This document shows, piece by piece, positions 4,537 through 41,441 of a DNA stretch of 64,000 nt. Source of the stretch: Eubacteriales bacterium (GTDB lineage Bacteria; Bacillota; Clostridia; Oscillospirales; SIG627). The first letter of the stretch is position 1. Every line of letters starts with the position of its first letter. The position numbers and the translations under genes are program-made. Location of the stretch: the NCBI GenBank assembly GCA_045543495.1, contig JAZQMO010000019.1:17056-81055 (forward strand). Reading direction: 5' to 3'. The notes beneath the pieces are model-generated. The model was not told where the DNA came from. It made no database searches and saw nothing but the letters and a program-made list of their open reading frames with translations.

Positions 4537-5781
4537 ATGTTAAAAGATACCTTAAAGGAAAAAGGCTATATTCTTCCCGAAGGATTTTCCGTAGGCTTTG
4601 CCTCTGCGGTGGTCAATCCCCCCAACGGCGTCAGTATGGCAGGCTACGGCGTGGCCAATGCCAAGGTGAGACTGACCACGGAGAATTGGGAGGATCTGAA
4701 GGTTCTCTGCGCCGCTTGGTCCGACGGAGAAAATCTTACTATGACCTGTACCTTTGATACCTGTCAGATCGCCGAGAGCGTGGCAAGACCCGTGCTTCGT
4801 ATGATGGAGGAGGAGATCGGCATCCCCGAGGAAAATGTGATCTTCAACGTGATCCATACCCACGCCGCTCCCACCATGTATACCACCTCTGCCGATTGGC
4901 CCGGCGTTCCGGAGTATCAGAAAAACGTGTTTTACCCCGCCCTGCTTCAGGCCGCCAAGGAGGCGGTGAAGGATCTTGCTCCCGCTACCCTTTCTCTGGG
5001 CCGCGGCAAGACCGAGGGGCTTTCCTATGTGCGCCGCTATCTGCTCAGCGATGGCACCTACAAGACCAATCCCCGCGGAGACGATGTGCCCGTTGCACAC
5101 GAAACGAGCCACGATGAGACCATGCAGGTGGTTCGCATTCACCGTGAGGGCGCAAAGGATCTTGTTATCATCAACTGGCAGTGCCATCCCACCAGCGCAG
5201 GCGGTGCCGGTCATACCAATACCAGCCCCGACTGGGTGGGAATCCTGCGTGACCGTGTGGAGGCAGAGCTTGATGTGCACTGTATGTTCCATCAGGGCGC
5301 CGCAGGCAATATCGTAGGAAGCGGCAAGCTTCCCGGAGAAGAGGTGTTCGGCCGTGACCGCTATGTGGAGCACGGAGAAAAAATTGCCCGGGTGGCTCTG
5401 AAGATCCTCTCCTCTCCCATGGCTCCTCTTGCCACGGGTAAGGTGCAGGCCACCAAGAAAATGCTCCCCTTGCCTCGGAAGGAGGATGAGAGCACGACCC
5501 GCGATATTCCCATTTCCGCTCTGTCTATGGGTCAGCTTTCCTTTGCCACTGCGCCCTATGAAATGTTCTCTGCCAACGGAGAATGGATCAAGGCCAATAC
5601 CCCCTTTGATGTGACCTTCGTTTGTGAAAACACCAACGGGAACTACAACTACGTTCCCTCCAAGGAAAGCTATCCTCACGGAAGCTATGAGGTTCGCATC
5701 TGTCCCTTTGCCATGGGTGCCGCTGAGACCGTGGCCGAGGAGCTGGTTTCCATGCTCAAGGCTCAAAGCCAAAACGCTTAA
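4537..5781 (+). CDS. Neutral-ceramidase-like metallo-amidohydrolase, paralog 1 of 12 (cytoplasmic form, most divergent copy)
   Basis: ORF 4531..5781. ATG 4537 is better spaced from the AAAGGAGA SD. Motifs LPEGFSVGFA, NVIHTHAAP, LSYVRRY, INWQCHPTS, HQGAAGN, APYEMF, GSYEV. No signal peptide. CDS is certain; the family call rests on motif order only. Confidence 0.75.
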   Translation: MLKDTLKEKGYILPEGFSVGFASAVVNPPNGVSMAGYGVANAKVRLTTENWEDLKVLCAAWSDGENLTMTCTFDTCQIAESVARPVLRMMEEEIGIPEENVIFNVIHTHAAPTMYTTSADWPGVPEYQKNVFYPALLQAAKEAVKDLAPATLSLGRGKTEGLSYVRRYLLSDGTYKTNPRGDDVPVAHETSHDETMQVVRIHREGAKDLVIINWQCHPTSAGGAGHTNTSPDWVGILRDRVEAELDVHCMFHQGAAGNIVGSGKLPGEEVFGRDRYVEHGEKIARVALKILSSPMAPLATGKVQATKKMLPLPRKEDESTTRDIPISALSMGQLSFATAPYEMFSANGEWIKANTPFDVTFVCENTNGNYNYVPSKESYPHGSYEVRICPFAMGAAETVAEELVSMLKAQSQNA

Positions 5782-5798
5782 TCTGCAAAATCAGGATA

Positions 5799-5840
5799 AA
5801 ACACCCAAGGGTTCCCTAAAAGCCCTTGGGTGTTTTTTTG
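5799..5840 (+). terminator. Rho-independent terminator after paralog 1
   Basis: Stem ACACCCAAGGG(5801-5811)/CCCTTGGGTGT(5823-5833) followed by a T-run. Confidence 0.75.
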
Positions 5841-5934
5841 CAAAAGGAAATAATGTTCATAAAATTGCAAAAAAATAATAATTATTTTATGTAAAATCTA
5901 AGAAAAAGTGCAAATAATTCATCAAATCTGCATC

Positions 5935-5963
5935 TTGCCACAATATTTCGGGTGGGATATAAT
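5935..5963 (+). promoter_or_regulatory. Sigma-A type promoter of array unit 2
   Basis: TTGCCA (5935-5940), 17-nt spacer, TATAAT (5958-5963). Confidence 0.55.
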
Positions 5964-6004
5964 GAAGAAAAGCGGGGCTTGTTCCCGAGAAAGGACCCGA
6001 TGAA

Positions 6005-7375
6005 ATGAAACGTACTTTATCTTTGATCTTATGTCTTTGTATTCTTTGCTCTCTCGTTTCCTGCGCTTCCTCCTTGCCTGTGGAGGAAACGGTGGAGAAA
6101 ACAGAGGAAACAAAAGAAATCACTGCCGAGAAAACCGAGGAAGAAAAGGATCTCGGCCCCATCACCTTGCCCCAAGGCTTCTCGGTAGGCTGGGCAAGAA
6201 GCGATGTGACCCCCGCCAACGGCACGGCCTTGGCAGGCTACGGTGCCGCCAGCAACACCAAGAGACTCAGCAGCAGAGTGCTGGATCCCCTTCTTCTCAC
6301 CTGTACCGCCGTGTCCGACGGAGAAAATGTAGCCCTCCTCTTTTCCACCGATAATCTTTATGTCGGTCAGGCGATCTTTGAGCAGGCAGTAAAGCTGGTG
6401 GGGAAGATCTATGATATCTCTCAAAGCAATATCATTATGAATGCCACTCATACCCACTCTGCCGCTCCGCTTCATTACAGCGGCTTTGCGGGAGAGGGCG
6501 CTTATCTGAAAAAGTATTACGCCGCCGTCAAGGAGAGTGCCGAGGGTGCTCTGCGGGATCTGGAGGAGGCTGAAATCTACATTGGTTCCGCCAATACCGA
6601 AAACTTAAACTATGTTCGCAGATACGTGAATTTAGAGGACGGCTCCTATGCGGGAAAGAATCTGAACAATGCCGATCCTGCCAAAATCGGCCACGAAACC
6701 GAGGCGGATACTCTGATGCAGATCGTAAAATTTGACCGCAAGACCAAACAGGATGTGGTGCTTTGTAACTGGCAGTGCCACGTAACCGGCCCCGGCTCCG
6801 AGAGCGGGGGAGAGGTTTCCGCCGACTGGGTGGGCACCTTCCGCAAGAACATAGAGGAAAAAGCGAGCGTGCTTTTCTCTTATCATCAGGGTGCGGCAGG
6901 CAACCTTGCCGCAAACAGCGGAATTTCGGATGAGCCCAGCAATAAGGATTATTTTGAGCACGGGAAAAAGCTTTGCGCTGTCGCTATGTCTGCCATGGAG
7001 AATATGAAAAAGGTGAATTCCGGTAAGGTGCAGGCCATTATGCAGAACCATACCGCCACCTACAACACCGATTATAAGCCCGAGGGAGGCACCTTTGATT
7101 TCCTCATCAGCGGCATTTCCATCGGCGATGTTGCCTTTGCCGCCGCTCCTTACGAGATGCACGATACCAACGGAATGGAATTGAAAGCCGCTTCCCCCTT
7201 TGAGATGACCTTCGTCTGCGCTTATTCCAACGGAGTCTGGGGCTATATGGCATCCTCCGCCGCCTTTGAAAACGGCGGCTACGAGGTGGATTCCACCCGT
7301 TTCGTGAAGGGCACGGGAGAGAATGTCATTCGGGATCTGACCGGAATTCTGAATACCCTTTACCAAACCAAATAA
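6005..7375 (+). CDS. Neutral-ceramidase-like amidohydrolase, paralog 2 (lipoprotein form)
   Basis: 456 aa. Signal peptide MKRTLSLILCLCILCSLVSC with lipobox LVSC. 34-aa T/E/K-rich linker. Motifs LPQGFSVGWA, NATHTHSAP, LNYVRRY, CNWQCH, HQGAAGN, APYEMHD, GGYEV. Confidence 0.8.
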   Translation: MKRTLSLILCLCILCSLVSCASSLPVEETVEKTEETKEITAEKTEEEKDLGPITLPQGFSVGWARSDVTPANGTALAGYGAASNTKRLSSRVLDPLLLTCTAVSDGENVALLFSTDNLYVGQAIFEQAVKLVGKIYDISQSNIIMNATHTHSAAPLHYSGFAGEGAYLKKYYAAVKESAEGALRDLEEAEIYIGSANTENLNYVRRYVNLEDGSYAGKNLNNADPAKIGHETEADTLMQIVKFDRKTKQDVVLCNWQCHVTGPGSESGGEVSADWVGTFRKNIEEKASVLFSYHQGAAGNLAANSGISDEPSNKDYFEHGKKLCAVAMSAMENMKKVNSGKVQAIMQNHTATYNTDYKPEGGTFDFLISGISIGDVAFAAAPYEMHDTNGMELKAASPFEMTFVCAYSNGVWGYMASSAAFENGGYEVDSTRFVKGTGENVIRDLTGILNTLYQTK

Positions 7376-24506: not shown

Positions 24507-24535
24507 ATGATAACTTCTTTTTTTGGATTTGTCAA
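24507..24535 (-). promoter_or_regulatory. Sigma-A type promoter of the riboswitch-thiT-thiN unit
   Basis: Minus strand TTGACA (24535-24530), 17-nt spacer, TATCAT (24512-24507). Overlaps the 5' end of the terL ORF on the other strand. Confidence 0.5.
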
Positions 24536-24543
24536 GTAAAAAA

Positions 24544-25914
24544 ATGAATGCAACTGAAAAATTATTATCCACCCTGCACCCCTTTCCTCCGCAGGAGGCT
24601 TTTTTTCGTGCCCGTGCACGGCGCATCGCCTACGGCGGGGCGAGAGGGGGCGGGAAGAGCTTTGCCATGCGAGCAAAGCTTGTGCTCCTTGCTCTGCGCT
24701 ATCCCGGAATTCAGATCCTTCTGCTTCGGCGCACCTTTCCCGAGCTTCGGGAAAACCACATCAATCCCCTGCGCCGCTGGCTTTACGGCATTGCCACCTA
24801 TCGGGATTCCACCAAGGAATTTCTGTTCCCCGGCGGCTCCCGCATCAAGCTGGGCTACCTTTCGGAGGAGGGGGACGCCCTTCAGTATCAGGGTCAGGCC
24901 TATGAGGTCATCGGAATGGAGGAGGCCACGCAGTTTACGGAAAGTCAGTATTACGCCATGACCGAGTGCTGCCGCTTGGCGGGGCAGATGAAGGAAAAAT
25001 TTGTGCCCCGTATGTATTTTACCTGTAACCCCGGCGGGGTGGGACACGCTTGGGTCAAGCGCCTTTTCATTGATCGGGATTACCGAGCGGGGGAGGATGG
25101 GAGGGACTATGTTTTCATTCCCTCCACCGTTTATGACAACCGCTATCTCATTCAGGAAAATCCCGAGTATGTGCGAAGCCTGGAGAGCCTGCCGCCCCTG
25201 CGCCGCCGAGCTATGCTGGACGGAGATTGGGATGCCTTCGAGGGGCAGTATTTCACGGAATTTGACCGTGCCAAGCACGAAATCGCCCCCTTTGCCATTC
25301 CCTCCCATTGGCATCGCTTTGCCGCCTTGGACTACGGCCTTGATATGACCGCCTGCCTTTTATTTGCCTACCCGCCCGATCAGAGCCGCCTTGTGGTATA
25401 CGGGGAATTGTATGAGCCGGATCTTGTGCTCTCCCAAGCGGCGGAAAAGATCGTGGAAATGACCAAGGGGCAGAATCTGCGCTATGTCACTGCCTCTCCC
25501 GACCTTGCGGGGCGGCGGCAGGACGGGGGCAAATCGGGCTTTGATATTCTGCAAAAGGGCGGGGTCAAGGGCCTTGTCAGCGCCGATAACGCCCGCATCC
25601 CCGGCTGGCGCAGAGTGCGGGAATTTTTGCGGGCCGAGGGAGAGGAGGGGGCGTATCTGGGCATCTTTTCCAATTGCCGAAACCTGCTTCGCACCTTGCC
25701 CTCCCTCACCTTTGACCCCATCAAGACCGAGGATGCCGCCCTGACGCCCCACGAATATACCCACGCCCCCGATGCCCTGCGCTACGGTCTGTCCTCCCTG
25801 CCCTTTCTCCCCGGTGCCCCTTTGCCCAAAAAGGAAGAAAAATGGGATGTGGTGCAGTCCTTTTTCGGGAAGGAGCGCTCCCGCAGCGATTATCTTGGTT
25901 TTTTGAAAAAATAA
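24544..25914 (+). CDS. Phage terminase large subunit-like protein (orphan)
   Basis: ORF 24523..25914; first ATG at 24544. Walker A YGGARGGGKSF, Walker B-like EVIGMEEAT, a C-terminal RNaseH-like nuclease block (ALDYGLDMTAC...) and the terminal HAPDALRY typical of TerL. Confidence 0.8.
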   Translation: MNATEKLLSTLHPFPPQEAFFRARARRIAYGGARGGGKSFAMRAKLVLLALRYPGIQILLLRRTFPELRENHINPLRRWLYGIATYRDSTKEFLFPGGSRIKLGYLSEEGDALQYQGQAYEVIGMEEATQFTESQYYAMTECCRLAGQMKEKFVPRMYFTCNPGGVGHAWVKRLFIDRDYRAGEDGRDYVFIPSTVYDNRYLIQENPEYVRSLESLPPLRRRAMLDGDWDAFEGQYFTEFDRAKHEIAPFAIPSHWHRFAALDYGLDMTACLLFAYPPDQSRLVVYGELYEPDLVLSQAAEKIVEMTKGQNLRYVTASPDLAGRRQDGGKSGFDILQKGGVKGLVSADNARIPGWRRVREFLRAEGEEGAYLGIFSNCRNLLRTLPSLTFDPIKTEDAALTPHEYTHAPDALRYGLSSLPFLPGAPLPKKEEKWDVVQSFFGKERSRSDYLGFLKK

Positions 25915-25960
25915 TTGACATCCCCTCCATCTTTTGCTACACTTTTTTTCGGAGGGTGCT

Positions 25961-26743
25961 ATGTTGAAGGAATTTTTTGAAAGGGAAGGGATCTTCTGTT
26001 ACGGAGAGATCCGAAAAGAAGCCCTTCGTGTGATAAACGAAAGGAAAATGCTTCGGGTCGAGGAGAAGCTGGGTGGGGTCGAAAGTGCGATCCTCTTTTT
26101 GATGCCCTATTATTCGGGGCAAAAGACCACCAATCTTTCGATTTATGCCCAGCCCCGTGATTATCACCTGTTTGCCAACTCCCTTTCCCAAAGACTTTTG
26201 GAATACTGGAAGAAAAAGGGTCTTGAGGGCTCCTTTTTCCTCACGGCCGATACTTCTCCTGTTGATGAGCGAAATGCCGCCCTGAAGGCGGGCCTTGGGG
26301 TGCTGGGGAAGCACGGCCTTTTGATCCACCCTCGTTACGGCTCCTTTGTGTTCATCGGTATTGTGTTTTTATCCAAGGCCATCTGTCCCCAAAAGGAAAA
26401 AGAGATCGCTTTTTGTCCACGCTGCGGTGCTTGTGTCTCTGCCTGTCCCACCCGCTTTTTGGAGGATGGGGGGGCGTGCCTTTCTGAGCTGACACAAAAA
26501 AAGCTTCTCACCGAAGAGGAGCTTGTCTTGGTGAAGAAGGCAGATTGTAAATGGGGCTGCGATCTTTGCCAAAACGCCTGTCCCCTGAACCAAGGGGTGG
26601 AGAAAACCCCCATTCCCTTCTTTCGGGAGGATTTGCTGGAGGAGTTGACAGAAAAGACGCTGTCCTTTTCCGATGAAGACCTTGCCTCCCGTGCCTTTTT
26701 CTGGCGGGGGAGAGCTGTTTTGCGCCGAAATTTGGATCGTTAA
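25961..26743 (+). CDS. Epoxyqueuosine-reductase-like 4Fe-4S protein (QueG/DUF1730-like)
   Basis: ORF 25934..26743. ATG 25961 follows a GGAGGG SD. Two ferredoxin-type motifs, CPRCGACVSACP and CDLCQNACP. Confidence 0.5.
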   Translation: MLKEFFEREGIFCYGEIRKEALRVINERKMLRVEEKLGGVESAILFLMPYYSGQKTTNLSIYAQPRDYHLFANSLSQRLLEYWKKKGLEGSFFLTADTSPVDERNAALKAGLGVLGKHGLLIHPRYGSFVFIGIVFLSKAICPQKEKEIAFCPRCGACVSACPTRFLEDGGACLSELTQKKLLTEEELVLVKKADCKWGCDLCQNACPLNQGVEKTPIPFFREDLLEELTEKTLSFSDEDLASRAFFWRGRAVLRRNLDR

Positions 26744-37214: not shown

Positions 37215-37300
37215 AAAAAGAAGGCAGTCAGTTGACTACCTTCTTTTTATTTGTAAATCAATCTTACTTGTTCAGAGCCACAGAAACGGGGTGGCTACGG
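37215..37300. repeat. Copy A of duplicated gene-3'-end plus terminator (relic)
   Basis: 34 bp AAAAAGAAGGCAGTCAGTTGACTACCTTCTTTTT (37215-37248) is identical to 38042-38075. A flanking relic reading frame on the minus strand ends ...VSVALNK-stop, against ...ISMALNK-stop for the GGGtGRT gene. Confidence 0.85.
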
Positions 37301-37537
37301 GAGCTGCCTTTTTAATTTTTCTAGACAATTGTGGCAAAGAAATAGATTTGGCTTTAATTTTAAAAGATTTTCAGGGCTTTGGCAAATAGCGCAGTGGGTG
37401 CTTTCTTTTGTCAGTGTGATTTTCTTTTCTTTCGAATCATAGTCGATGAAAAGAAAGTCGCCTTCGTTTAAGCCCATATCTTCTCGTATTTCTTTCGGGA
37501 TCCCGATCCTTCCCAAGGTATTCAGTCTCTTTTTCAT
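37295..37537 (-). CDS. AbrB/MazE/SpoVT-type DNA-binding domain fused to a CxxC...CxxC zinc ribbon
   Basis: ORF 37295..37600. ATG 37537 follows an AAGAGGAG SD. LGRIGIPKEIREDMGL is a SpoVT_AbrB swapped-hairpin motif. C-terminal CAICQ...CHNC. Confidence 0.6.
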   Translation of the reverse strand: MKKRLNTLGRIGIPKEIREDMGLNEGDFLFIDYDSKEKKITLTKESTHCAICQSPENLLKLKPNLFLCHNCLEKLKRQLP

Positions 37538-37666
37538 TGTTGCTCCTCTTTTTTTGCTTTGGTCATAGCATAGCACAAGACTTCTCAAAAGCCAACTCAA
37601 AAGAGTTAAACTTTTTAACTCAAAAAAGTTACCATTAGAAAAAAGATGATTTTTGCGGAGGAATGT

Positions 37667-37909
37667 ATGAGGGTTGGAGAGGCGGTTCGTTTGAGAATTA
37701 TGGAACTATGCGAGGAAAGAGGGCTTACCACCAATGCCCTTGCCAATCTTTGCGGTGTAACGCAATCCACCCTTGCGAATATTGTCGGCGGCAGAAATCA
37801 AAGCACCACGGTGTCTACGATCAAAAAGCTTTGTGACGGCTTGGAAATTGAAATCGGGGACTTTTTTGACTCCTCGCTCTTTTCCGATCTGGAGCAAGAG
37901 ATCCGTTGA
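37667..37909 (+). CDS. XRE-family helix-turn-helix protein
   Basis: ORF 37646..37909. ATG 37667 follows a GGAGGA SD. RLRIMELCEERGLTTNALANLCGVTQSTLANIVGGRN is an HTH_3-like block. Confidence 0.65.
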   Translation: MRVGEAVRLRIMELCEERGLTTNALANLCGVTQSTLANIVGGRNQSTTVSTIKKLCDGLEIEIGDFFDSSLFSDLEQEIR

Positions 37910-38041
37910 CTTGGAATCAAAAAAATGCTCCTTGCCTATTGTGGAAGCAGCAAGGCTTTCATTATAAAACCCTGAAGGTTTTTGGGAAGGGGATGGGAAA
38001 CACTTTTTGCCGAAAAAGGGTTTCCCGAAAAACAAAAAAAT

Positions 38042-38129
38042 AAAAAGAAGGCAGTCAGTTGACTACCTTCTTTTTCTATATAAGCTTGATCTTACTTATT
38101 GAGAGCCATGGAGATTTCTACGGCTACGG
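38042..38129. repeat. Copy B of duplicated 3'-end plus terminator (functional end of the GGGtGRT gene)
   Basis: Identical 34-bp hairpin core at 38042-38075. It folds best on the minus strand (G-U pair) and is followed there by a T-run. Overlaps the last codons of CDS 38092..39093. Confidence 0.85.
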
Positions 38130-39093
38130 CAACGGTCATACCAACCATGGGGTTGTTACCTGCGCCGATGAGGCCCATCATTTCCACGTGAGCGGGAACG
38201 GAGGAGGAGCCTGCGAACTGAGCATCGCCGTGCATACGGCCCATGGTATCGGTCATACCGTAGGAAGCGGGGCCTGCAGCCATATTATCGGGATGCAGGG
38301 TTCTGCCCGTACCGCCGCCGGAAGCAACGGAGAAGTACTTCTTGCCGTTTTCAATGGCCCACTTCTTGTAGGTACCTGCAACGGGGTGCTGGAAGCGGGT
38401 GGGGTTGGTGGAGTTACCGGTGATGGAAACGTCAACAGACTCGTGCTGCATAATGGCAACGCCTTCCAGAACATCGTTGGAGCCGTAGCAACGAACCTTG
38501 GCTCTTTCGCCGTCGGAATAAGCCTTGGACTTGATGATGTTCAGCTTGTTCTCGGTGAAATCAAACTCGGTCTGCACATAGGTGAAGCCGTTGATTCTTG
38601 AGATGATGTGAGCGGCATCCTTACCCAGACCGTTGAGGATGATCTGGAGAGGCTCTTTACGAACCTTATTTGCGGTCTTTGCAATACCGATTGCGCCCTC
38701 TGCAGCGGCGAAGGACTCGTGACCTGCCAGGAAGCAGAAGCACTTGGTCTCTTCTCTGAGCAGCATAGCAGCCAGATTACCGTGGCCCAGACCGACGTTT
38801 CTGGTCTCGGCAACGGAGCCGTGAATACAGAATGCCTGCAGGCCGATACCGATCGCCTCGGCAGCCTCAGCGGCGCTCTTAACGCCCTTCTTTACTGCAA
38901 TGGCAGCACCCAGGGTGTAAGCCCAAGCGGCGTTTTCAAATGCGATGGGCTGAACGCCCTTGACCAGAGCGTCTACATCCACGCCCAGATCCAGGCAGAT
39001 CTTCTGTGCTTCCTCGAGAGAAGCAATGCCGTATTCCTTGAGGCACTCGTTGATCTTACCAATTCTTCTTTCGTATCCTTCAAATTTAACCAT
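38092..39093 (-). CDS. GGGtGRT-family protein (function unknown)
   Basis: 333 aa. Contains the family-defining string SGGGTGRTLHPDN. Confidence 0.8.
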   Translation of the reverse strand: MVKFEGYERRIGKINECLKEYGIASLEEAQKICLDLGVDVDALVKGVQPIAFENAAWAYTLGAAIAVKKGVKSAAEAAEAIGIGLQAFCIHGSVAETRNVGLGHGNLAAMLLREETKCFCFLAGHESFAAAEGAIGIAKTANKVRKEPLQIILNGLGKDAAHIISRINGFTYVQTEFDFTENKLNIIKSKAYSDGERAKVRCYGSNDVLEGVAIMQHESVDVSITGNSTNPTRFQHPVAGTYKKWAIENGKKYFSVASGGGTGRTLHPDNMAAGPASYGMTDTMGRMHGDAQFAGSSSVPAHVEMMGLIGAGNNPMVGMTVAVAVEISMALNK

Positions 39094-39104
39094 CTTATGC
39101 CTCC

Positions 39105-39800
39105 TTATTCTTCACGGGGATCAATGTACTTGACAGCGGAATCGTATCTTCCGTAGGTCTTTACATTGGTCTCGTAAGCTTCCTTGGGATCCTTGCCGTG
39201 ACGGATCTGCTCCATCATCTTTCCAAGGTGAACGAACTTGTAGCCGATGATCTCGTTGTCCTCGTCAAGACCCAGGGAGAGAATGTAGCCCTCGGCCATT
39301 TCCAGATAACGAACGCCCTTGGCGTTGGTAGCGAAGATGGTACCAACCTGGCTTCTCAGACCCTTACCAAGGTCATCGAGGGTGGAGCCGACGGGCAGAC
39401 CGTCCTCGGAGAAAGCGGTCTGGGTGCGGCCGTAAACCAGCTGCAGGAAGATCTCTCTCATGGCCACGTTGATGGCGTCGCAAACGAGGTCGGTGTTCAG
39501 GGCTTCCAGAATGGTCTTGCCCTGGAGGATCTCAGCTGCCATAGCAGCGGAGTGGGTCATACCGGAGCAGCCGCTGGTCTCAACCAGAGCCTCTTCGATG
39601 ATACCCTTCTTAACGTTCAGGGTGAGCTTGCACATACCCTGCTGGGGAGCGCACCAGCCGATACCGTGGGAAAGACCGGAGATATCGGTTACGTCATAAG
39701 CCTTGACCCATCTGCCTTCTTCGGGAATGGGAGCGGGGCCGTGCTTGGGGCCTTTGGCCACAACACACATGTTTTCTACGTCTTCGGTAAACATTGTCAT
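39105..39800 (-). CDS. NifU/IscU-like iron-sulfur scaffold-domain protein
   Basis: 231 aa. Cys-containing blocks GWCAPQQGMC and SGCSGMTHSAAMAAE resemble the IscU/NifU N-terminal domain. Confidence 0.55.
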   Translation of the reverse strand: MTMFTEDVENMCVVAKGPKHGPAPIPEEGRWVKAYDVTDISGLSHGIGWCAPQQGMCKLTLNVKKGIIEEALVETSGCSGMTHSAAMAAEILQGKTILEALNTDLVCDAINVAMREIFLQLVYGRTQTAFSEDGLPVGSTLDDLGKGLRSQVGTIFATNAKGVRYLEMAEGYILSLGLDEDNEIIGYKFVHLGKMMEQIRHGKDPKEAYETNVKTYGRYDSAVKYIDPREE

Positions 39801-39823
39801 GATCTGTTATCCTTTCTGATTTC

Positions 39824-40411
39824 TTATTCCACCAGAGTTCCCATGGTGCCGGGAGCAGCCATGGCAGCATTGGATTCGTCGGTATCGATGTGCATAGCGG
39901 CGGCGAACTTCTCGCTGACTCTGACCACGACCTCATCGAAAATCAGGGCTCTGTCGCCCTCCACACGGATCTTTACGATCTGCTTGTCCTTCACACCGAA
40001 GGCAGCAGCATCGGCGGGGGTAAAGTGAATGTGACGCTTTGCCACGATGACACCCTCAGCCAGCTCAACGCTCTTGTCGCCAACCTGAATGGTGCAGCCG
40101 GCAGAGCCTGCCACATCACCGGATTCACGGATGGGAGCCTTCACACCCAGGCTTCTGGCATCGGTAGCGGAAACCTCTACCTGAGAAGCGGGACGGGCGG
40201 GTCCGAGAATGATTACGTTTTTGATGGTGCCTTTGGGGCCTACCAGATCCACTCTCTCCTCACAAGCGAACTGACCGGGCTGGGACAGATCCTTCTTGTG
40301 GGTCAGCTGATATCCTTTGCCGAAGAGCGCTTCGATGTGCTCCTGAGTAAGGTGAACGTGGCGGGCAGAAGTTTCAACAAGTACCTTCTTTTCCATTTTC
40401 TTCATCTCCAA
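39824..40411 (-). CDS. pduL: Phosphate acyltransferase PduL-type (phosphate propanoyl/acetyl-transferase)
   Basis: 195 aa. Duplicated PduL signature: ETSARHVHLTQEHIEALFG and AKRHIHFTPADAAAFG. Confidence 0.8.
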   Translation of the reverse strand: MEMKKMEKKVLVETSARHVHLTQEHIEALFGKGYQLTHKKDLSQPGQFACEERVDLVGPKGTIKNVIILGPARPASQVEVSATDARSLGVKAPIRESGDVAGSAGCTIQVGDKSVELAEGVIVAKRHIHFTPADAAAFGVKDKQIVKIRVEGDRALIFDEVVVRVSEKFAAAMHIDTDESNAAMAAPGTMGTLVE

Positions 40412-40496
40412 TTCTTTGTTTTTGTATTTGCTTAACCGCCCTATTATACTATAACTTTCCCTCTTTTGTAAAGAGGGAGGACGGATTTTTACGAAA

Positions 40497-41441
40497 TTAT
40501 CTGCGGGATTTTAAGGATACGGAACGAATTTTGATCAAAACGAAAAGGGTAATGGCAAGATCAATGACCAGAGTGGAGGAATCCACCAGATCCATAGAGA
40601 TCCGGTCCCCCATCACCGCAAAGAGCTGAGGCAGGCGGCCCGTCACTCCGAAGAAGGCGGTGGCAAGGGCGGAAAAGGAGTAGGAGGCGGGAGCAAACAT
40701 GGCCTTTTCGCCCAAAAGAAGCTGAGCCTGATACAGGAAAAAGATCATAGCGGATATGATGAAGAGAAACTGGCCGATGTAAAGGGTCTTGTTGACAAAG
40801 CGGGCCAGATCCCGATATTCCACCACCATTCTTACGGTGCACCACAGGGCGGGCAGCAGGGCGAAAAAGGGACGGGAGGCGGATCTCTGCGAGGAATTGC
40901 CGATTCCCGTGAAAATAAAGTAAGCGCCCGACAGCGCCGACAGAACGGAAAAGGCAAGATAATAGGCGTTCAGCTCAATTTCGGGATTGAATACGAAGGA
41001 GAGGGCATAGGCCAAAAAGCCAAAGCCGGGGAGGAAGGTGGCAAAGGCCGACAGGGTTCCCTCCCAAACGGCGCTCTTGCGGGCAAAGCCCTGCAAAAAC
41101 AGGTGAGGCAGATCCTCCTCCACCTCGTGAACCTCTTGATTTTGCATCAACAGGGTGTTGGCACCGATGCCGGGGGCAACGGTGGTGTGATCGTTTTCCG
41201 CCCTTTTCTTCTTTTTCTCACGGGTGCGAATGAATTTCTGCACGGAGAAAAACAGGCACAAAAAGAACACAAAAAAGCCCATACCGTTGTAGATCAGGCA
41301 GGCGGTGGGCTCCTTTGCGAAAAAGCCCGTGTTGATTTCCAGCTCCGTCCAGTAGGTGATCAGCCGCAAAGCAATGGCGGGCACGGCCAAAATCGCCACA
41401 AAGTAAAAAATGATGCGGAACAGCTTGCGATCGTATTTCAT
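40497..41441 (-). CDS. Hypothetical multi-pass membrane protein
   Basis: 314 aa, many TM segments, basic loop RTREKKKKRAEND. No family recognised. Confidence 0.55.
   Translation of the reverse strand: MKYDRKLFRIIFYFVAILAVPAIALRLITYWTELEINTGFFAKEPTACLIYNGMGFFVFFLCLFFSVQKFIRTREKKKKRAENDHTTVAPGIGANTLLMQNQEVHEVEEDLPHLFLQGFARKSAVWEGTLSAFATFLPGFGFLAYALSFVFNPEIELNAYYLAFSVLSALSGAYFIFTGIGNSSQRSASRPFFALLPALWCTVRMVVEYRDLARFVNKTLYIGQFLFIISAMIFFLYQAQLLLGEKAMFAPASYSFSALATAFFGVTGRLPQLFAVMGDRISMDLVDSSTLVIDLAITLFVLIKIRSVSLKSRR

What the first reader, a model, noticed from the sequence alone, without database searches (positions are those of the whole stretch)
38092..40411. pduL / NifU-like / GGGtGRT three-gene operon of unknown function
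Three tightly packed minus-strand genes (gaps of 23 and 11 nt) encode a PduL-type phosphate acyltransferase, a 231-aa Cys-rich NifU/IscU-like protein, and a GGGtGRT-family protein. As far as I know the GGGtGRT family has no assigned function. No microcompartment shell genes or pdu/eut pathway genes are nearby. PduL is therefore not in its textbook context. The grouping suggests an uncharacterised acyl-phosphate/acyl-CoA step that depends on an Fe-S or metal-handling partner.
Basis: partly seen in the sequence, partly recalled or inferred. Interest (0 to 1): 0.6.

Follow-up and report, generated by a model that had tools for sequence, protein, structure and literature searches.

The report
PduL with NifU-like/GGGtGRT gene pair
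Three tightly packed, apparently highly expressed genes join a working acyl-CoA/phosphate transferase (PduL, here outside any microcompartment) to an extremely conserved but never characterised two-protein module (an IscU-like cysteine-rich protein plus a "GGGtGRT" protein) found across gut anaerobes. The operon is real and recurs in related genomes, but what the module does is still unknown.

Summary
Three minus-strand genes (PduL, a 231-aa IscU-like protein, GGGtGRT) lie 23 and 11 nt apart, between a near-consensus promoter and a strong terminator. They are the three most codon-biased ORFs in the window. No shell, eut, ackA or pta genes occur in the 64 kb.

The stable unit is the pair, not the triad. 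An IscU-like gene sits directly upstream of GGGtGRT in 77 of 77 genome loci from about eight phyla (median gap 18 nt), and also in a divergent 50%-identity clade. GGGtGRT is 75-83% identical across phyla. It has no solved structural relative and no published function.

PduL accompanies the pair in only 7 of 80 species-level loci. Among PduL's own closest homologues, however, 9 of 10 sit in the same triad, in at least four genomic contexts, and two lineages place PduL downstream instead. The grouping is therefore a conserved, clade-specific operon and not an accident.

PduL keeps all six metal ligands and lacks an encapsulation peptide.

Best reading: an abundant heteromeric iron(-sulfur) protein of central anaerobic metabolism, linked in this clade to the acetyl-CoA/acetyl-phosphate node. 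The reaction remains unknown.

The parts
40443..40472 (-). Sigma-70-type promoter, TTTACA-18 nt-TATAAT (11 of 12 matches), upstream of pduL
   Evidence: sequence read
39824..40411 (-). pduL-type phosphate acyltransferase. The ORF runs from the TTG at 40411, but the probable real start is the ATG at 40396 (190 aa). There is no N-terminal encapsulation peptide. The metal ligands H18, H20, E79, H127, H129 and H174 and the phosphate-contact residue R73 are all present (numbering of the 195-aa ORF).
   Evidence: ligand list from PMC4784909
39105..39800 (-). 231-aa IscU-fold-derived Cys-rich protein ('NifU-like'). The IscU-like core spans about residues 50-107; residues 120-231 match no known family. 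Invariant Cys at 12, 50, 57, 78 and 107.
39094..39104 (-). 11-nt junction: TAA stop of the NifU-like gene, then a GGAGG Shine-Dalgarno, a 6-nt spacer and the ATG of GGGtGRT. This fits translational coupling.
   Evidence: gap distribution in 89 loci
38092..39093 (-). GGGtGRT-family protein (PF14057), 333 aa. The model has an N-terminal helical domain (1-112), a central alpha/beta domain with an invariant N154-G-L-G-K-D-A-A turn, and C-terminal invariant loops (S258-GGGTGRT-LHPDN, ASYG-TD-MGRMH, QFAGSSSVPAHVEM) that are modelled with low confidence.
38042..38075 (-). Intrinsic terminator: 15-bp stem, 4-nt loop and a T-run, 17 nt after the GGGtGRT stop

Best explanation
The locus is one strongly expressed transcription unit made of two functional parts.

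Part 1, shown. pduL encodes a catalytically intact, non-encapsulated phosphate acyltransferase (acyl-CoA + Pi <-> acyl-phosphate + CoA). It most likely acts on acetyl-CoA as a cytosolic, housekeeping-type enzyme.

Part 2, pairing shown, function inferred. The NifU-like and GGGtGRT genes are an obligate, translationally coupled pair that most likely forms a heteromeric iron(-sulfur) protein. The IscU-derived subunit would hold a stably bound metal or Fe-S centre on its conserved cysteines. The GGGtGRT subunit would be the substrate- or cofactor-binding, probably catalytic, subunit. It has a new fold, a Rossmann-like central domain and invariant Gly/His/Asp-rich loops.

Inferred role. The pair works in central fermentative or redox metabolism of anaerobes. 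In this Oscillospirales-type clade it is wired to the acetyl-CoA/acetyl-phosphate node through co-transcription with PduL. The pair does not need PduL, and PduL does not need the pair. The reaction catalysed is not known.
For: Operon anatomy: gaps of 23 and 11 nt, one promoter, one terminator, and a stop-GGAGG-ATG junction.

High expression: ENC is 31.5, 31.6 and 35.5 for the three genes, against 39.4-56.9 for 45 other ORFs. GGGtGRT and its NifU partner are repeatedly seen as abundant proteins in rumen, chicken and human gut proteomes.

PduL is intact: all six Zn ligands and R103 of the R. palustris enzyme are conserved and there is no encapsulation peptide. It passes NCBIfam PRK15070 (274 bits against 209) but falls below the microcompartment EutD equivalog cut-off (288 against 315).

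Obligate pair: the NifU-like gene is directly upstream of GGGtGRT in 77 of 77 loci that include upstream DNA, in the divergent clade (L082-L084), and in Vibrio and Persicobacter. The median gap is 18 nt (n=89).

Strong constraint: GGGtGRT is 75-83% identical across Clostridia, Treponema, Elusimicrobiales, Bacteroidales, Melainabacteria, Eggerthellaceae and Polyangiaceae.

Iron link: B. thetaiotaomicron BT0173-74 falls 11-13-fold on iron deprivation (PMC10434189). The C. pasteurianum homologue changes 2-7-fold between iron-rich and iron-limited cultures (PMC5395762; I did not confirm the direction from the table's column headings). Five Cys are invariant in the partner.

Central-metabolism link: transposon insertions in BT0173-4 came out of the same screen as pfkA for loss of glucose repression of Cur. 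A Rex-like operator is enriched upstream of the pair in some Clostridia: 6 of 74 at two mismatches or fewer, against 0.46 in shuffles and 5 of 330 in all intergenic regions.

Phosphotransacylase link: PduL is the only specific recurrent neighbour of the pair, in 7 of 80 loci. Nine of 10 close PduL homologues are in the triad, in at least four different flanking contexts. PduL lies downstream of the pair in L006 and L041, and a classical pta lies 1.2 kb away in L062.
Against: - No biochemical datum exists for either protein of the pair.
- Complex formation is inferred only from gene coupling. No fusion proteins were found and a complex could not be modelled.
- The IscU-like model is poor (pLDDT 56), so cluster binding is unproven.
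- The Rossmann-like reading of the central domain rests on weak Foldseek hits (E >= 0.03, TM <= 0.29) and a GxGxxA-type turn.
- 70 of 77 species-level loci lack PduL, and B. thetaiotaomicron mutants grow normally on glucose. Any tie to the acetyl-CoA node may therefore be no more than co-expression of abundant genes.
- The window itself has no Rex-like box.
- The PduL-linked loci are phylogenetically clustered, so the number of independent linkage events is small, about 3-5.
Confidence: 0.45

Rival explanations
1. Iron or Fe-S handling module. The IscU-like protein is a scaffold, carrier or store for Fe-S clusters (or iron/sulfide), and GGGtGRT is its dedicated partner (assembly factor, nucleotide-dependent release factor or storage matrix). 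PduL is linked only because both are abundant housekeeping genes.
For: - IscU-type core with conserved Cys.
- Public annotation as 'iron-sulfur cluster assembly scaffold protein'.
- Strong down-regulation in low iron, as for iron-storage or iron-rich proteins (iron-dependent abundance change also).
- It co-varied with cysteine synthase and O-acetylhomoserine thiol-lyase in the rumen proteome.
- It is present in lineages with heavy Fe-S demand.
- One locus has a class-V aminotransferase and a weak Se/S-carrier hit nearby.
Against: - It fails all three NCBIfam scaffold equivalogs by a wide margin (22-25 bits against 92-192).
- The IscU Cys37/Asp39 positions are not kept, LPPVK is absent, and four or five Cys suggest a fixed rather than transient centre (sequence).
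- No cysteine desulfurase is a recurrent neighbour.
- Assembly systems are usually induced or maintained in low iron, not repressed 12-fold.
- The many invariant polar and glycine residues of GGGtGRT and its extreme conservation look like an active site.
- The repeated phosphotransacylase linkage is left unexplained.
Confidence: 0.3
2. One reading: a dedicated three-protein pathway in which an acyl-CoA/acyl-phosphate conversion by PduL depends on the Fe-S or metal partner and the GGGtGRT protein. For example, the pair makes the acyl-CoA that PduL turns into acyl-phosphate for ATP synthesis, like an aldehyde dehydrogenase/PduL couple without a shell.
For: - The triad is conserved in 9 of 10 close PduL homologues, in several contexts, with short gaps of 22-102 nt in 14 loci.
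- Alternative gene orders keep the linkage (L006, L041), and a non-homologous pta lies near the pair in L062.
- All three genes share strong codon bias.
- One universally conserved Cys (C202), a Rossmann-like domain and Gly-rich loops in GGGtGRT would suit thioester or phosphate chemistry.
Against: - The pair is found without PduL in most lineages and phyla.
- PduL is a complete enzyme on its own.
- There is no detectable similarity of GGGtGRT to acylating aldehyde dehydrogenase EutE, acetate kinase or PFK (hhalign probabilities below 1%).
- No ackA is linked in any locus.
- One close PduL homologue stands alone beside a purine operon.
Confidence: 0.12
3. Meaningless adjacency. pduL merely landed upstream of a strong bicistronic operon in one lineage and has been inherited vertically, with no functional relation.
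For: - PduL linkage is confined to related Clostridia that cluster in the GGGtGRT tree.
- 70 of 77 species-level loci lack it.
Against: - At least three different arrangements exist: upstream adjacent, downstream at +250 nt, and downstream after two genes. There is also a pta case.
- The triad persists while its flanks change, in at least four contexts, and while GGGtGRT diverges to 70-78% identity.
- PduL is the only specific family recurring near the pair.
Confidence: 0.1

Closest known systems
PduL / Gram-positive EutD phosphotransacylase of Pdu, Eut and Grp metabolosomes (PF06130; structure 5CUO)
   Same: Same fold family: E=2e-42 to 5CUO over 174 residues. Identical dimetal ligand set and phosphate-contact arginine. 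The expected reaction is the same, acyl-CoA + Pi <-> acyl-phosphate + CoA.
   Different: There is no encapsulation peptide, and the window has no shell genes, no aldehyde dehydrogenase and no signature enzyme. It scores below the NCBIfam microcompartment EutD equivalog cut-off. It belongs with the minority of PduL homologues from genomes without shell genes that Erbilgin et al. 2016 mention. Its partners here are not known for any PduL.
Pta-AckA acetate branch of fermentative bacteria
   Same: Same chemical node. PduL is the isofunctional analogue of Pta. Strong codon bias and a consensus promoter fit a housekeeping flux enzyme. One related locus has a classical pta beside the pair.
   Different: No acetate kinase is linked in the window or in any of the 93 loci checked. 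The enzyme is PduL-type, not Pta-type.
IscU / NifU N-terminal domain / SufU Fe-S scaffold proteins (PF01592)
   Same: Local similarity over about 55 residues, including the GC(S/G) motif of IscU Cys63. The predicted beta-sheet plus helix core is present, and a further Cys (C107) sits where IscU Cys106 would be expected.
   Different: The protein is twice as long, with a C-terminal half that has no family. IscU Cys37 and Asp39 are replaced by a C-x6-C arrangement (C50, C57). There is no LPPVK motif and no desulfurase partner. It is always paired with GGGtGRT, and it fails every scaffold equivalog model.
Bacteroides thetaiotaomicron BT0173-BT0174 (GGGtGRT protein + 'NifU')
   Same: The same two-gene module. 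This is the only member with any experimental data: it is iron-dependent, dispensable on glucose, and its mutants show modest loss of glucose repression of Cur.
   Different: No PduL is reported with it in B. thetaiotaomicron (the papers name only the two genes), and the Bacteroidales loci here (L054, L057, L077) show the pair alone. Function is unassigned there too.

Membership tests
PduL phosphate acyltransferase (PF06130 / NCBIfam PRK15070) | Full-length match above the curated cut-offs | tested here: met
   PF06130: 276 bits against a cut-off of 25, profile positions 2-174 of 176. PRK15070: 274 bits against 209.
PduL phosphate acyltransferase (PF06130 / NCBIfam PRK15070) | Dimetal site ligands (rPduL H48, H50, E109; H157, H159, H204) and the phosphate-contact residue R103 | tested here: met
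   In the alignment to 5CUO they correspond to H18, H20, E79, H127, H129, H174 and R73. The ligand list is from PMC4784909.
PduL phosphate acyltransferase (PF06130 / NCBIfam PRK15070) | Phosphotransacylase activity and acyl-chain preference | not testable with these tools
   This needs an enzyme assay.
Microcompartment-associated PduL/EutD (metabolosome core enzyme) | N-terminal encapsulation peptide | tested here: not met
   The domain starts at residue 12 of the ORF (residue 7 from the probable ATG). Orthologues are 188-194 aa.
Microcompartment-associated PduL/EutD (metabolosome core enzyme) | Shell protein genes (BMC-H/T, EutN/PduN type) and an aldehyde dehydrogenase in the locus | tested here: not met
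   tblastn with EutM, EutK, EutL, EutN, PduA and EutE against the 64-kb window found nothing below E=0.2. Pfam scans of neighbours found none. EutS was not used as a query.
Microcompartment-associated PduL/EutD (metabolosome core enzyme) | NCBIfam BMC_EutD_Gpos equivalog cut-off | tested here: not met
   287.9 bits against a cut-off of 315.
IscU/NifU/SufU Fe-S scaffold | Match to the family model over the whole domain | tested here: not met
   PF01592 gives only 22.7 bits (cut-off 22) over profile positions 39-88 of 127. NifU_clost 25 bits against 188, IscU 23 against 192, SufU 22 against 92.5.
IscU/NifU/SufU Fe-S scaffold | Three cluster-ligand cysteines at the canonical positions (IscU C37, C63, C106) plus the labile Asp39 | tested here: inconclusive
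   C78 aligns with C63. C37 aligns with Gln54, with Cys at -4 (C50) and +3 (C57) instead, and the Asp39 position is not kept. C107 lies where C106 is expected but outside the HMM alignment.
IscU/NifU/SufU Fe-S scaffold | LPPVK chaperone-binding motif and a genomic partner cysteine desulfurase | tested here: not met
   The 231-aa sequence has no LPPVK. The scanned neighbours include no class-V aminotransferase, and none is a recurrent neighbour in the 80 loci.
IscU/NifU/SufU Fe-S scaffold | Binds and transfers an Fe-S cluster | not testable with these tools
   This needs anaerobic purification and spectroscopy.
GGGtGRT family (PF14057) | Full-length match and the eponymous GGGTGRT motif | tested here: met
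   636 bits, profile positions 1-325 of 327. S258-G-G-G-T-G-R-T265 is invariant or nearly so in 46 sequences.
GGGtGRT family (PF14057) | Obligate upstream IscU-like partner gene (a feature established here, not part of the Pfam definition) | tested here: met
   77 of 77 loci with upstream DNA, and also L082-L084, L100 and L101.

The most novel reading that the evidence does not exclude
The IscU-like/GGGtGRT pair is a previously unrecognised, very abundant two-subunit metalloenzyme with a new fold. It catalyses a still-unassigned redox or phosphoryl/acyl step in the core fermentative metabolism of gut anaerobes. In the PduL-linked clade it feeds or drains the acyl-CoA/acyl-phosphate pool, which would make the triad a shell-free route to substrate-level phosphorylation.
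Probability: 0.2. Interest if true: 0.85.

Novelty: new variant of a known kind. Interest (0 to 1): 0.6.

Why it matters
GGGtGRT and its IscU-like partner are among the most conserved proteins of anaerobic gut and rumen bacteria (about 75-83% identity across phyla), and they turn up repeatedly in gut and rumen proteomes. Yet they have no known function, no solved structure and no structural relative. Any reliable functional lead for such a 'known unknown' would fill a visible gap in models of gut microbial metabolism.

This work shows three things:
- The two proteins are an obligate pair.
- The pair has the signature of very high expression.
- Its one specific recurrent neighbour is a phosphotransacylase.

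That turns a vague question into testable ones: does the pair bind Fe-S, NAD(P)H, CoA or acyl-phosphate, and do mutants shift acetyl-CoA and acetyl-phosphate pools? Tractable hosts exist (B. thetaiotaomicron BT0173-74, and Vibrio strains that carry the pair).

The locus also documents PduL as a cytosolic, probably housekeeping, phosphotransacylase in uncultured Oscillospirales-type bacteria.

Tried and rejected
1. GGGtGRT as a divergent phosphofructokinase. The prompts were the top Foldseek hit (T. brucei PFK), an 'MGR' motif and the pfkA-like transposon phenotype. hhalign against E. coli PfkA aligned only 18 columns at 0.5% probability. Rejected.

2. GGGtGRT as a divergent CoA-acylating aldehyde dehydrogenase or acetate kinase. 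hhalign against EutE and AckA gave probabilities of 0.3% and 0.1%. Rejected at the sequence level.

4. Other Pfam relationships of the sub-domains, at E <= 10: none.

5. Rosetta-stone fusions of the pair: none among 390 retrieved proteins. The long 'hits' are assembly chimeras or frameshifts.

6. Riboswitch or leader upstream of the pair: no Rfam match in 8 diverse loci.

7. Fur, PerR and cre boxes upstream: not enriched. A Rex-like box is enriched in a subset of loci but absent in the window.

8. Informative neighbours in Vibrio, Persicobacter and the divergent clade: none recurrent.

9. Literature under alternative names (BT0173/BT0174, guessed DUF/COG/IPR identifiers, PduL together with NifU, Rex regulon together with NifU): no functional study found.

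10. Correction. The first ENC value for pduL (44.2) was computed out of frame. The corrected value is 35.5.

11. The model of the IscU-like protein was too poor (pLDDT 56) to justify a fold search.
Full report
OBSERVATION. Pfam assigns the first to PF06130 (PduL/PTAC, E=1e-82) and the third to PF14057 (GGGtGRT, E=1e-191, full length). The middle one matches NifU_N only marginally (22.7 bits against a cut-off of 22, residues 58-103).

A near-consensus promoter (TTTACA-18-TATAAT) lies at 40472-40443. A 15-bp hairpin plus T-run lies 17 nt after the GGGtGRT stop. The NifU-like stop codon is followed at once by GGAGG, a 6-nt spacer and the GGGtGRT ATG. The likely pduL start is the ATG at 40396 (190 aa, as in orthologues), not the TTG at 40411.

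The three genes are the three most codon-biased ORFs of the window: ENC 31.5, 31.6 and 35.5, against 39.4-56.9 for 45 other ORFs of at least 150 codons (corrected for pduL). This is a single, probably very highly expressed operon.

CONTEXT. tblastn with E. coli EutM/K/L/N, EutB/C/A/E/G/H/J/T, EutD, Pta and AckA, and a recalled PduA sequence, found nothing in the 64 kb (best E=0.2). Pfam scans of about 30 neighbouring ORFs show housekeeping and cell-envelope genes only: an MFS transporter, XRE and AbrB-type regulators, a NAGPA glycosidase, a GT2-GtrA glycosyltransferase, Lon, a GTPase, a helicase, a sortase, PGM and thiamin pyrophosphokinase.

PduL. It aligns to the R. palustris PduL structure 5CUO over 174 residues (E=2e-42). 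It keeps the Zn1 ligands (H48, H50, E109), the Zn2 ligands (H157, H159, H204) and the phosphate-contact residue R103 described by Erbilgin et al. 2016. It has no N-terminal encapsulation peptide. It passes the NCBIfam subfamily model but stays below the cut-off of the microcompartment EutD equivalog. It is best read as a cytosolic phosphotransacylase of the kind that paper found in genomes without shell genes.

THE PAIR IS THE CONSERVED UNIT. A scan of one genome per species returned at least 598 loci, of which the best 80 were analysed. They come from Clostridia, Treponema, Elusimicrobiales, Melainabacteria, Bacteroidales, Eggerthellaceae and a Polyangiaceae MAG, and GGGtGRT is 74-96% identical to the query in all of them.
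- In all 77 loci that include upstream DNA, a homologue of the 231-aa protein lies immediately upstream on the same strand. The median gap in 89 loci is 18 nt.
- An exhaustive search of 50%-identity cluster representatives shows the family is essentially one tight clade plus a divergent lineage at about 50% identity. That lineage is also preceded by the IscU-like gene.
- The same holds on large secondary replicons of Vibrio (65% identity) and Persicobacter.
- Clustering all flanking ORFs found no other recurrent specific neighbour except PduL.

PduL LINKAGE. From the GGGtGRT side, PduL is in the locus in 7 of 80 cases:
- directly upstream in L001 and L002 (close relatives), L009 and L047;
- upstream with a 453-nt gap in L005;
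- downstream on the same strand in L006 (+250 nt) and in L041 (after two phosphoesterase genes).

One further locus (L062) has a classical pta 1.2 kb downstream, convergent.

From the PduL side the picture is much stronger. Of ten PduL homologues of 70-86% identity looked up on their contigs, nine are followed by the IscU-like gene and GGGtGRT. One of these has a GDSL lipase gene inserted and one is cut by the contig end. Only one stands alone, beside a purine operon. The triads sit in at least four different flanking contexts (GT2/NAGPA; ClpP/ECF/cation efflux; heparinase; SDR). Their GGGtGRT is as divergent from the window's (70-78%) as that of other phyla.

Equally, the pair functions without PduL in most lineages.

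WHAT THE TWO UNKNOWN PROTEINS LOOK LIKE.

GGGtGRT. The AlphaFold2 model has mean pLDDT 80 and pTM 0.82. It shows an N-terminal helical domain, a central alpha/beta domain and a C-terminal segment (259-300) of very low confidence. That segment coincides with the most invariant loops (SGGGTGRTLHPDN, ASYG-TD-MGRMH, QFAGSSSVPAH). Such a region may need a partner or cofactor to fold.

Foldseek against PDB found nothing significant (best E=0.03, TM <= 0.29). The weak hits are generic Rossmann-type proteins such as PFK, carboxyspermidine dehydrogenase and Gfo/Idh/MocA oxidoreductases. An invariant beta-strand followed by N-G-L-G-K-D-A-A and a helix, with a conserved Asp about 23 residues on, is compatible with a dinucleotide-binding turn. 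That is inference only.

Five His (104, 125, 267, 288, 302), several acidic residues and a single Cys (C202) are conserved in both clades. This suits a metal or active-site constellation.

Sequence and profile searches against PDB and Pfam, and direct hhalign tests against PfkA, EutE and AckA, were negative.

IscU-like protein. Only residues of about 50-105 resemble IscU. C78 matches IscU Cys63. IscU Cys37 and Asp39 are replaced by a C50-x6-C57 arrangement. C107 sits where Cys106 is expected. LPPVK is absent, the C-terminal 110 residues have no family, and all three NCBIfam scaffold equivalogs fail by large margins. I read it as an IscU-derived subunit with a fixed Cys-ligated centre rather than a transient assembly scaffold. 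Its model was too poor (pLDDT 56) to test this.

EXTERNAL DATA. No paper assigns a function. As late as 2025 the protein is called functionally unclear.
- In B. thetaiotaomicron, BT0173-74 (GGGtGRT and 'NifU') fall 11-13-fold on iron deprivation.
- The C. pasteurianum homologue changes 2-7-fold between iron-rich and iron-limited cultures. I did not confirm the direction from the table's column headings.
- Transposon insertions in BT0173-4 were isolated, together with pfkA, as mutants with reduced glucose repression of the regulator Cur. They grow normally on glucose.
- The proteins are repeatedly detected as abundant in rumen, chicken and human gut proteomes.
- A Rex-type operator is enriched upstream of the pair in a subset of Clostridia: 6 of 74 at two mismatches or fewer, against 0.46 in shuffles and 5 of 330 among all intergenic regions. 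It is absent in the window.

INTERPRETATION.

Shown:
- one operon of three strongly codon-biased genes;
- an intact, non-encapsulated PduL;
- an obligate, tightly coupled IscU-like/GGGtGRT pair under extreme constraint;
- recurrent, clade-specific linkage to a phosphotransacylase.

Inferred: the pair forms a heteromeric iron(-sulfur) protein acting in central anaerobic metabolism, and in this clade its expression, and perhaps its function, is tied to the acetyl-CoA/acetyl-phosphate node.

The main rival is an iron or Fe-S handling role. It fits the IscU ancestry and the iron regulation. It fits less well with the failed scaffold tests, the repression in low iron, the enzyme-like conservation of GGGtGRT and the phosphotransacylase linkage.

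Pure chance adjacency is unlikely, given the alternative gene orders and the changing flanks.

NOVELTY. All three families exist in databases and the operon is present, unremarked, in many public MAGs. What is new is that the pair is recognised as an obligate module, that it carries a signature of very high expression here, and that phosphotransacylase is its only specific neighbour. The function of the pair may well be categorically new (no fold or sequence relative of known function), but that is not demonstrated.

IN PASSING. An IMG/VR scan showed that the last 57 or so codons of GGGtGRT recur as isolated fragments. In 29 of 68 loci a tyrosine integrase of one family starts 195-382 nt downstream of the GGGtGRT stop or fragment. 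This indicates that the conserved 3' end of this gene is an attachment site for a family of integrative elements.

Noticed in passing
L102-L169 (IMG/VR loci), e.g. L146:5001-5174 with integrase at 5546-6763; L150:5001-5171 with integrase at 5366-6586: Isolated copies of only the last 57 or so codons of GGGtGRT (residues about 277-333, 77-86% identity) sit inside viral or integrative contigs. In 29 of 68 loci the same family of tyrosine integrase (Arm-DNA-bind_5 + Phage_int_SAM_5 + Phage_integrase) begins 195-382 nt downstream, on the same strand. The conserved 3' end of the GGGtGRT gene looks like an attachment site for integrative elements that bring a replacement gene end.
   Followed up: partly
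window 37295-38041, compared with L087 and L088: The DNA just downstream of the GGGtGRT terminator differs between the window (XRE HTH at 37646-37909 and an AbrB/MazE-like plus DUF4428 protein at 37295-37600), L087 (a 434-aa unknown and an M28 peptidase) and L088 (a Schlafen/AlbA_2-HATPase protein and an HTH). Their GGGtGRT genes are nevertheless 98-99% identical. This is a variable spot, consistent with the integration-site idea. No integrase was seen in the window.
   Followed up: partly
window 38092-40396 against the rest of the window: The three operon genes have the lowest effective number of codons of all ORFs of at least 150 codons in the window: 31.5, 31.6 and 35.5, with the next lowest at 39.4.
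   Followed up: yes
upstream of the NifU-like gene in L006, L007, L024, L045, L048 and L051: Rex-type operator-like sequences (TTGTTAA-N4-TTAACAA, two mismatches or fewer) lie 44-166 nt upstream of the pair in 6 of 74 loci. The expectation is about 0.5 from shuffles, and the count is 5 of 330 among all intergenic regions. None is present in the window.
   Followed up: partly
L082:842-6141 (metagenome contig, divergent GGGtGRT clade): The pair is preceded on the same strand by a histidine-phosphatase (PGM-family) gene, an HTH gene, an archaeal-type cofactor-independent phosphoglycerate mutase and a HAD phosphatase. This is a single case of glycolysis-related neighbours.
   Followed up: partly
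L062:2221-3261 (-): A classical Pta-type phosphate acetyltransferase (44% identical to E. coli Pta) lies 1.2 kb downstream of GGGtGRT, convergent, in an Oscillospiraceae MAG. It is a non-homologous isofunctional enzyme next to the same pair.
   Followed up: partly
L098:749-2222: A class-V aminotransferase (cysteine-desulfurase-like) and a weak Se/S-carrier hit lie just beyond ClpP, upstream of a PduL triad. This was seen once only.
   Followed up: no
GGGtGRT genes of L001-L080: Clustering of GGGtGRT by identity does not follow taxonomy. For example, the Elusimicrobiales locus L014 groups with the window's Clostridia clade, and Treponema groups with Bacteroidales. With 75-83% identity across phyla, this suggests lateral transfer on top of strong constraint.
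   Followed up: no
plasmid collection hits H5-H10 (L100, L101): The pair is present on the 1-1.8 Mb secondary replicons of Vibrio sp. THAF strains (65% identity) and of Persicobacter, so genetically tractable facultative anaerobes carry it.
   Followed up: partly
window 24523-26743: A lone phage terminase large-subunit ORF (24523-25914) is followed by a 4Fe-4S dicluster-domain protein (25934-26743), with no other phage genes identified in the scans made.
   Followed up: no
window 40497-41441 (-): A 314-aa multi-pass membrane protein with no Pfam family lies directly upstream of the operon. It is syntenic with the NAGPA and GT2-GtrA genes in the window and in L087 and L088.
   Followed up: no
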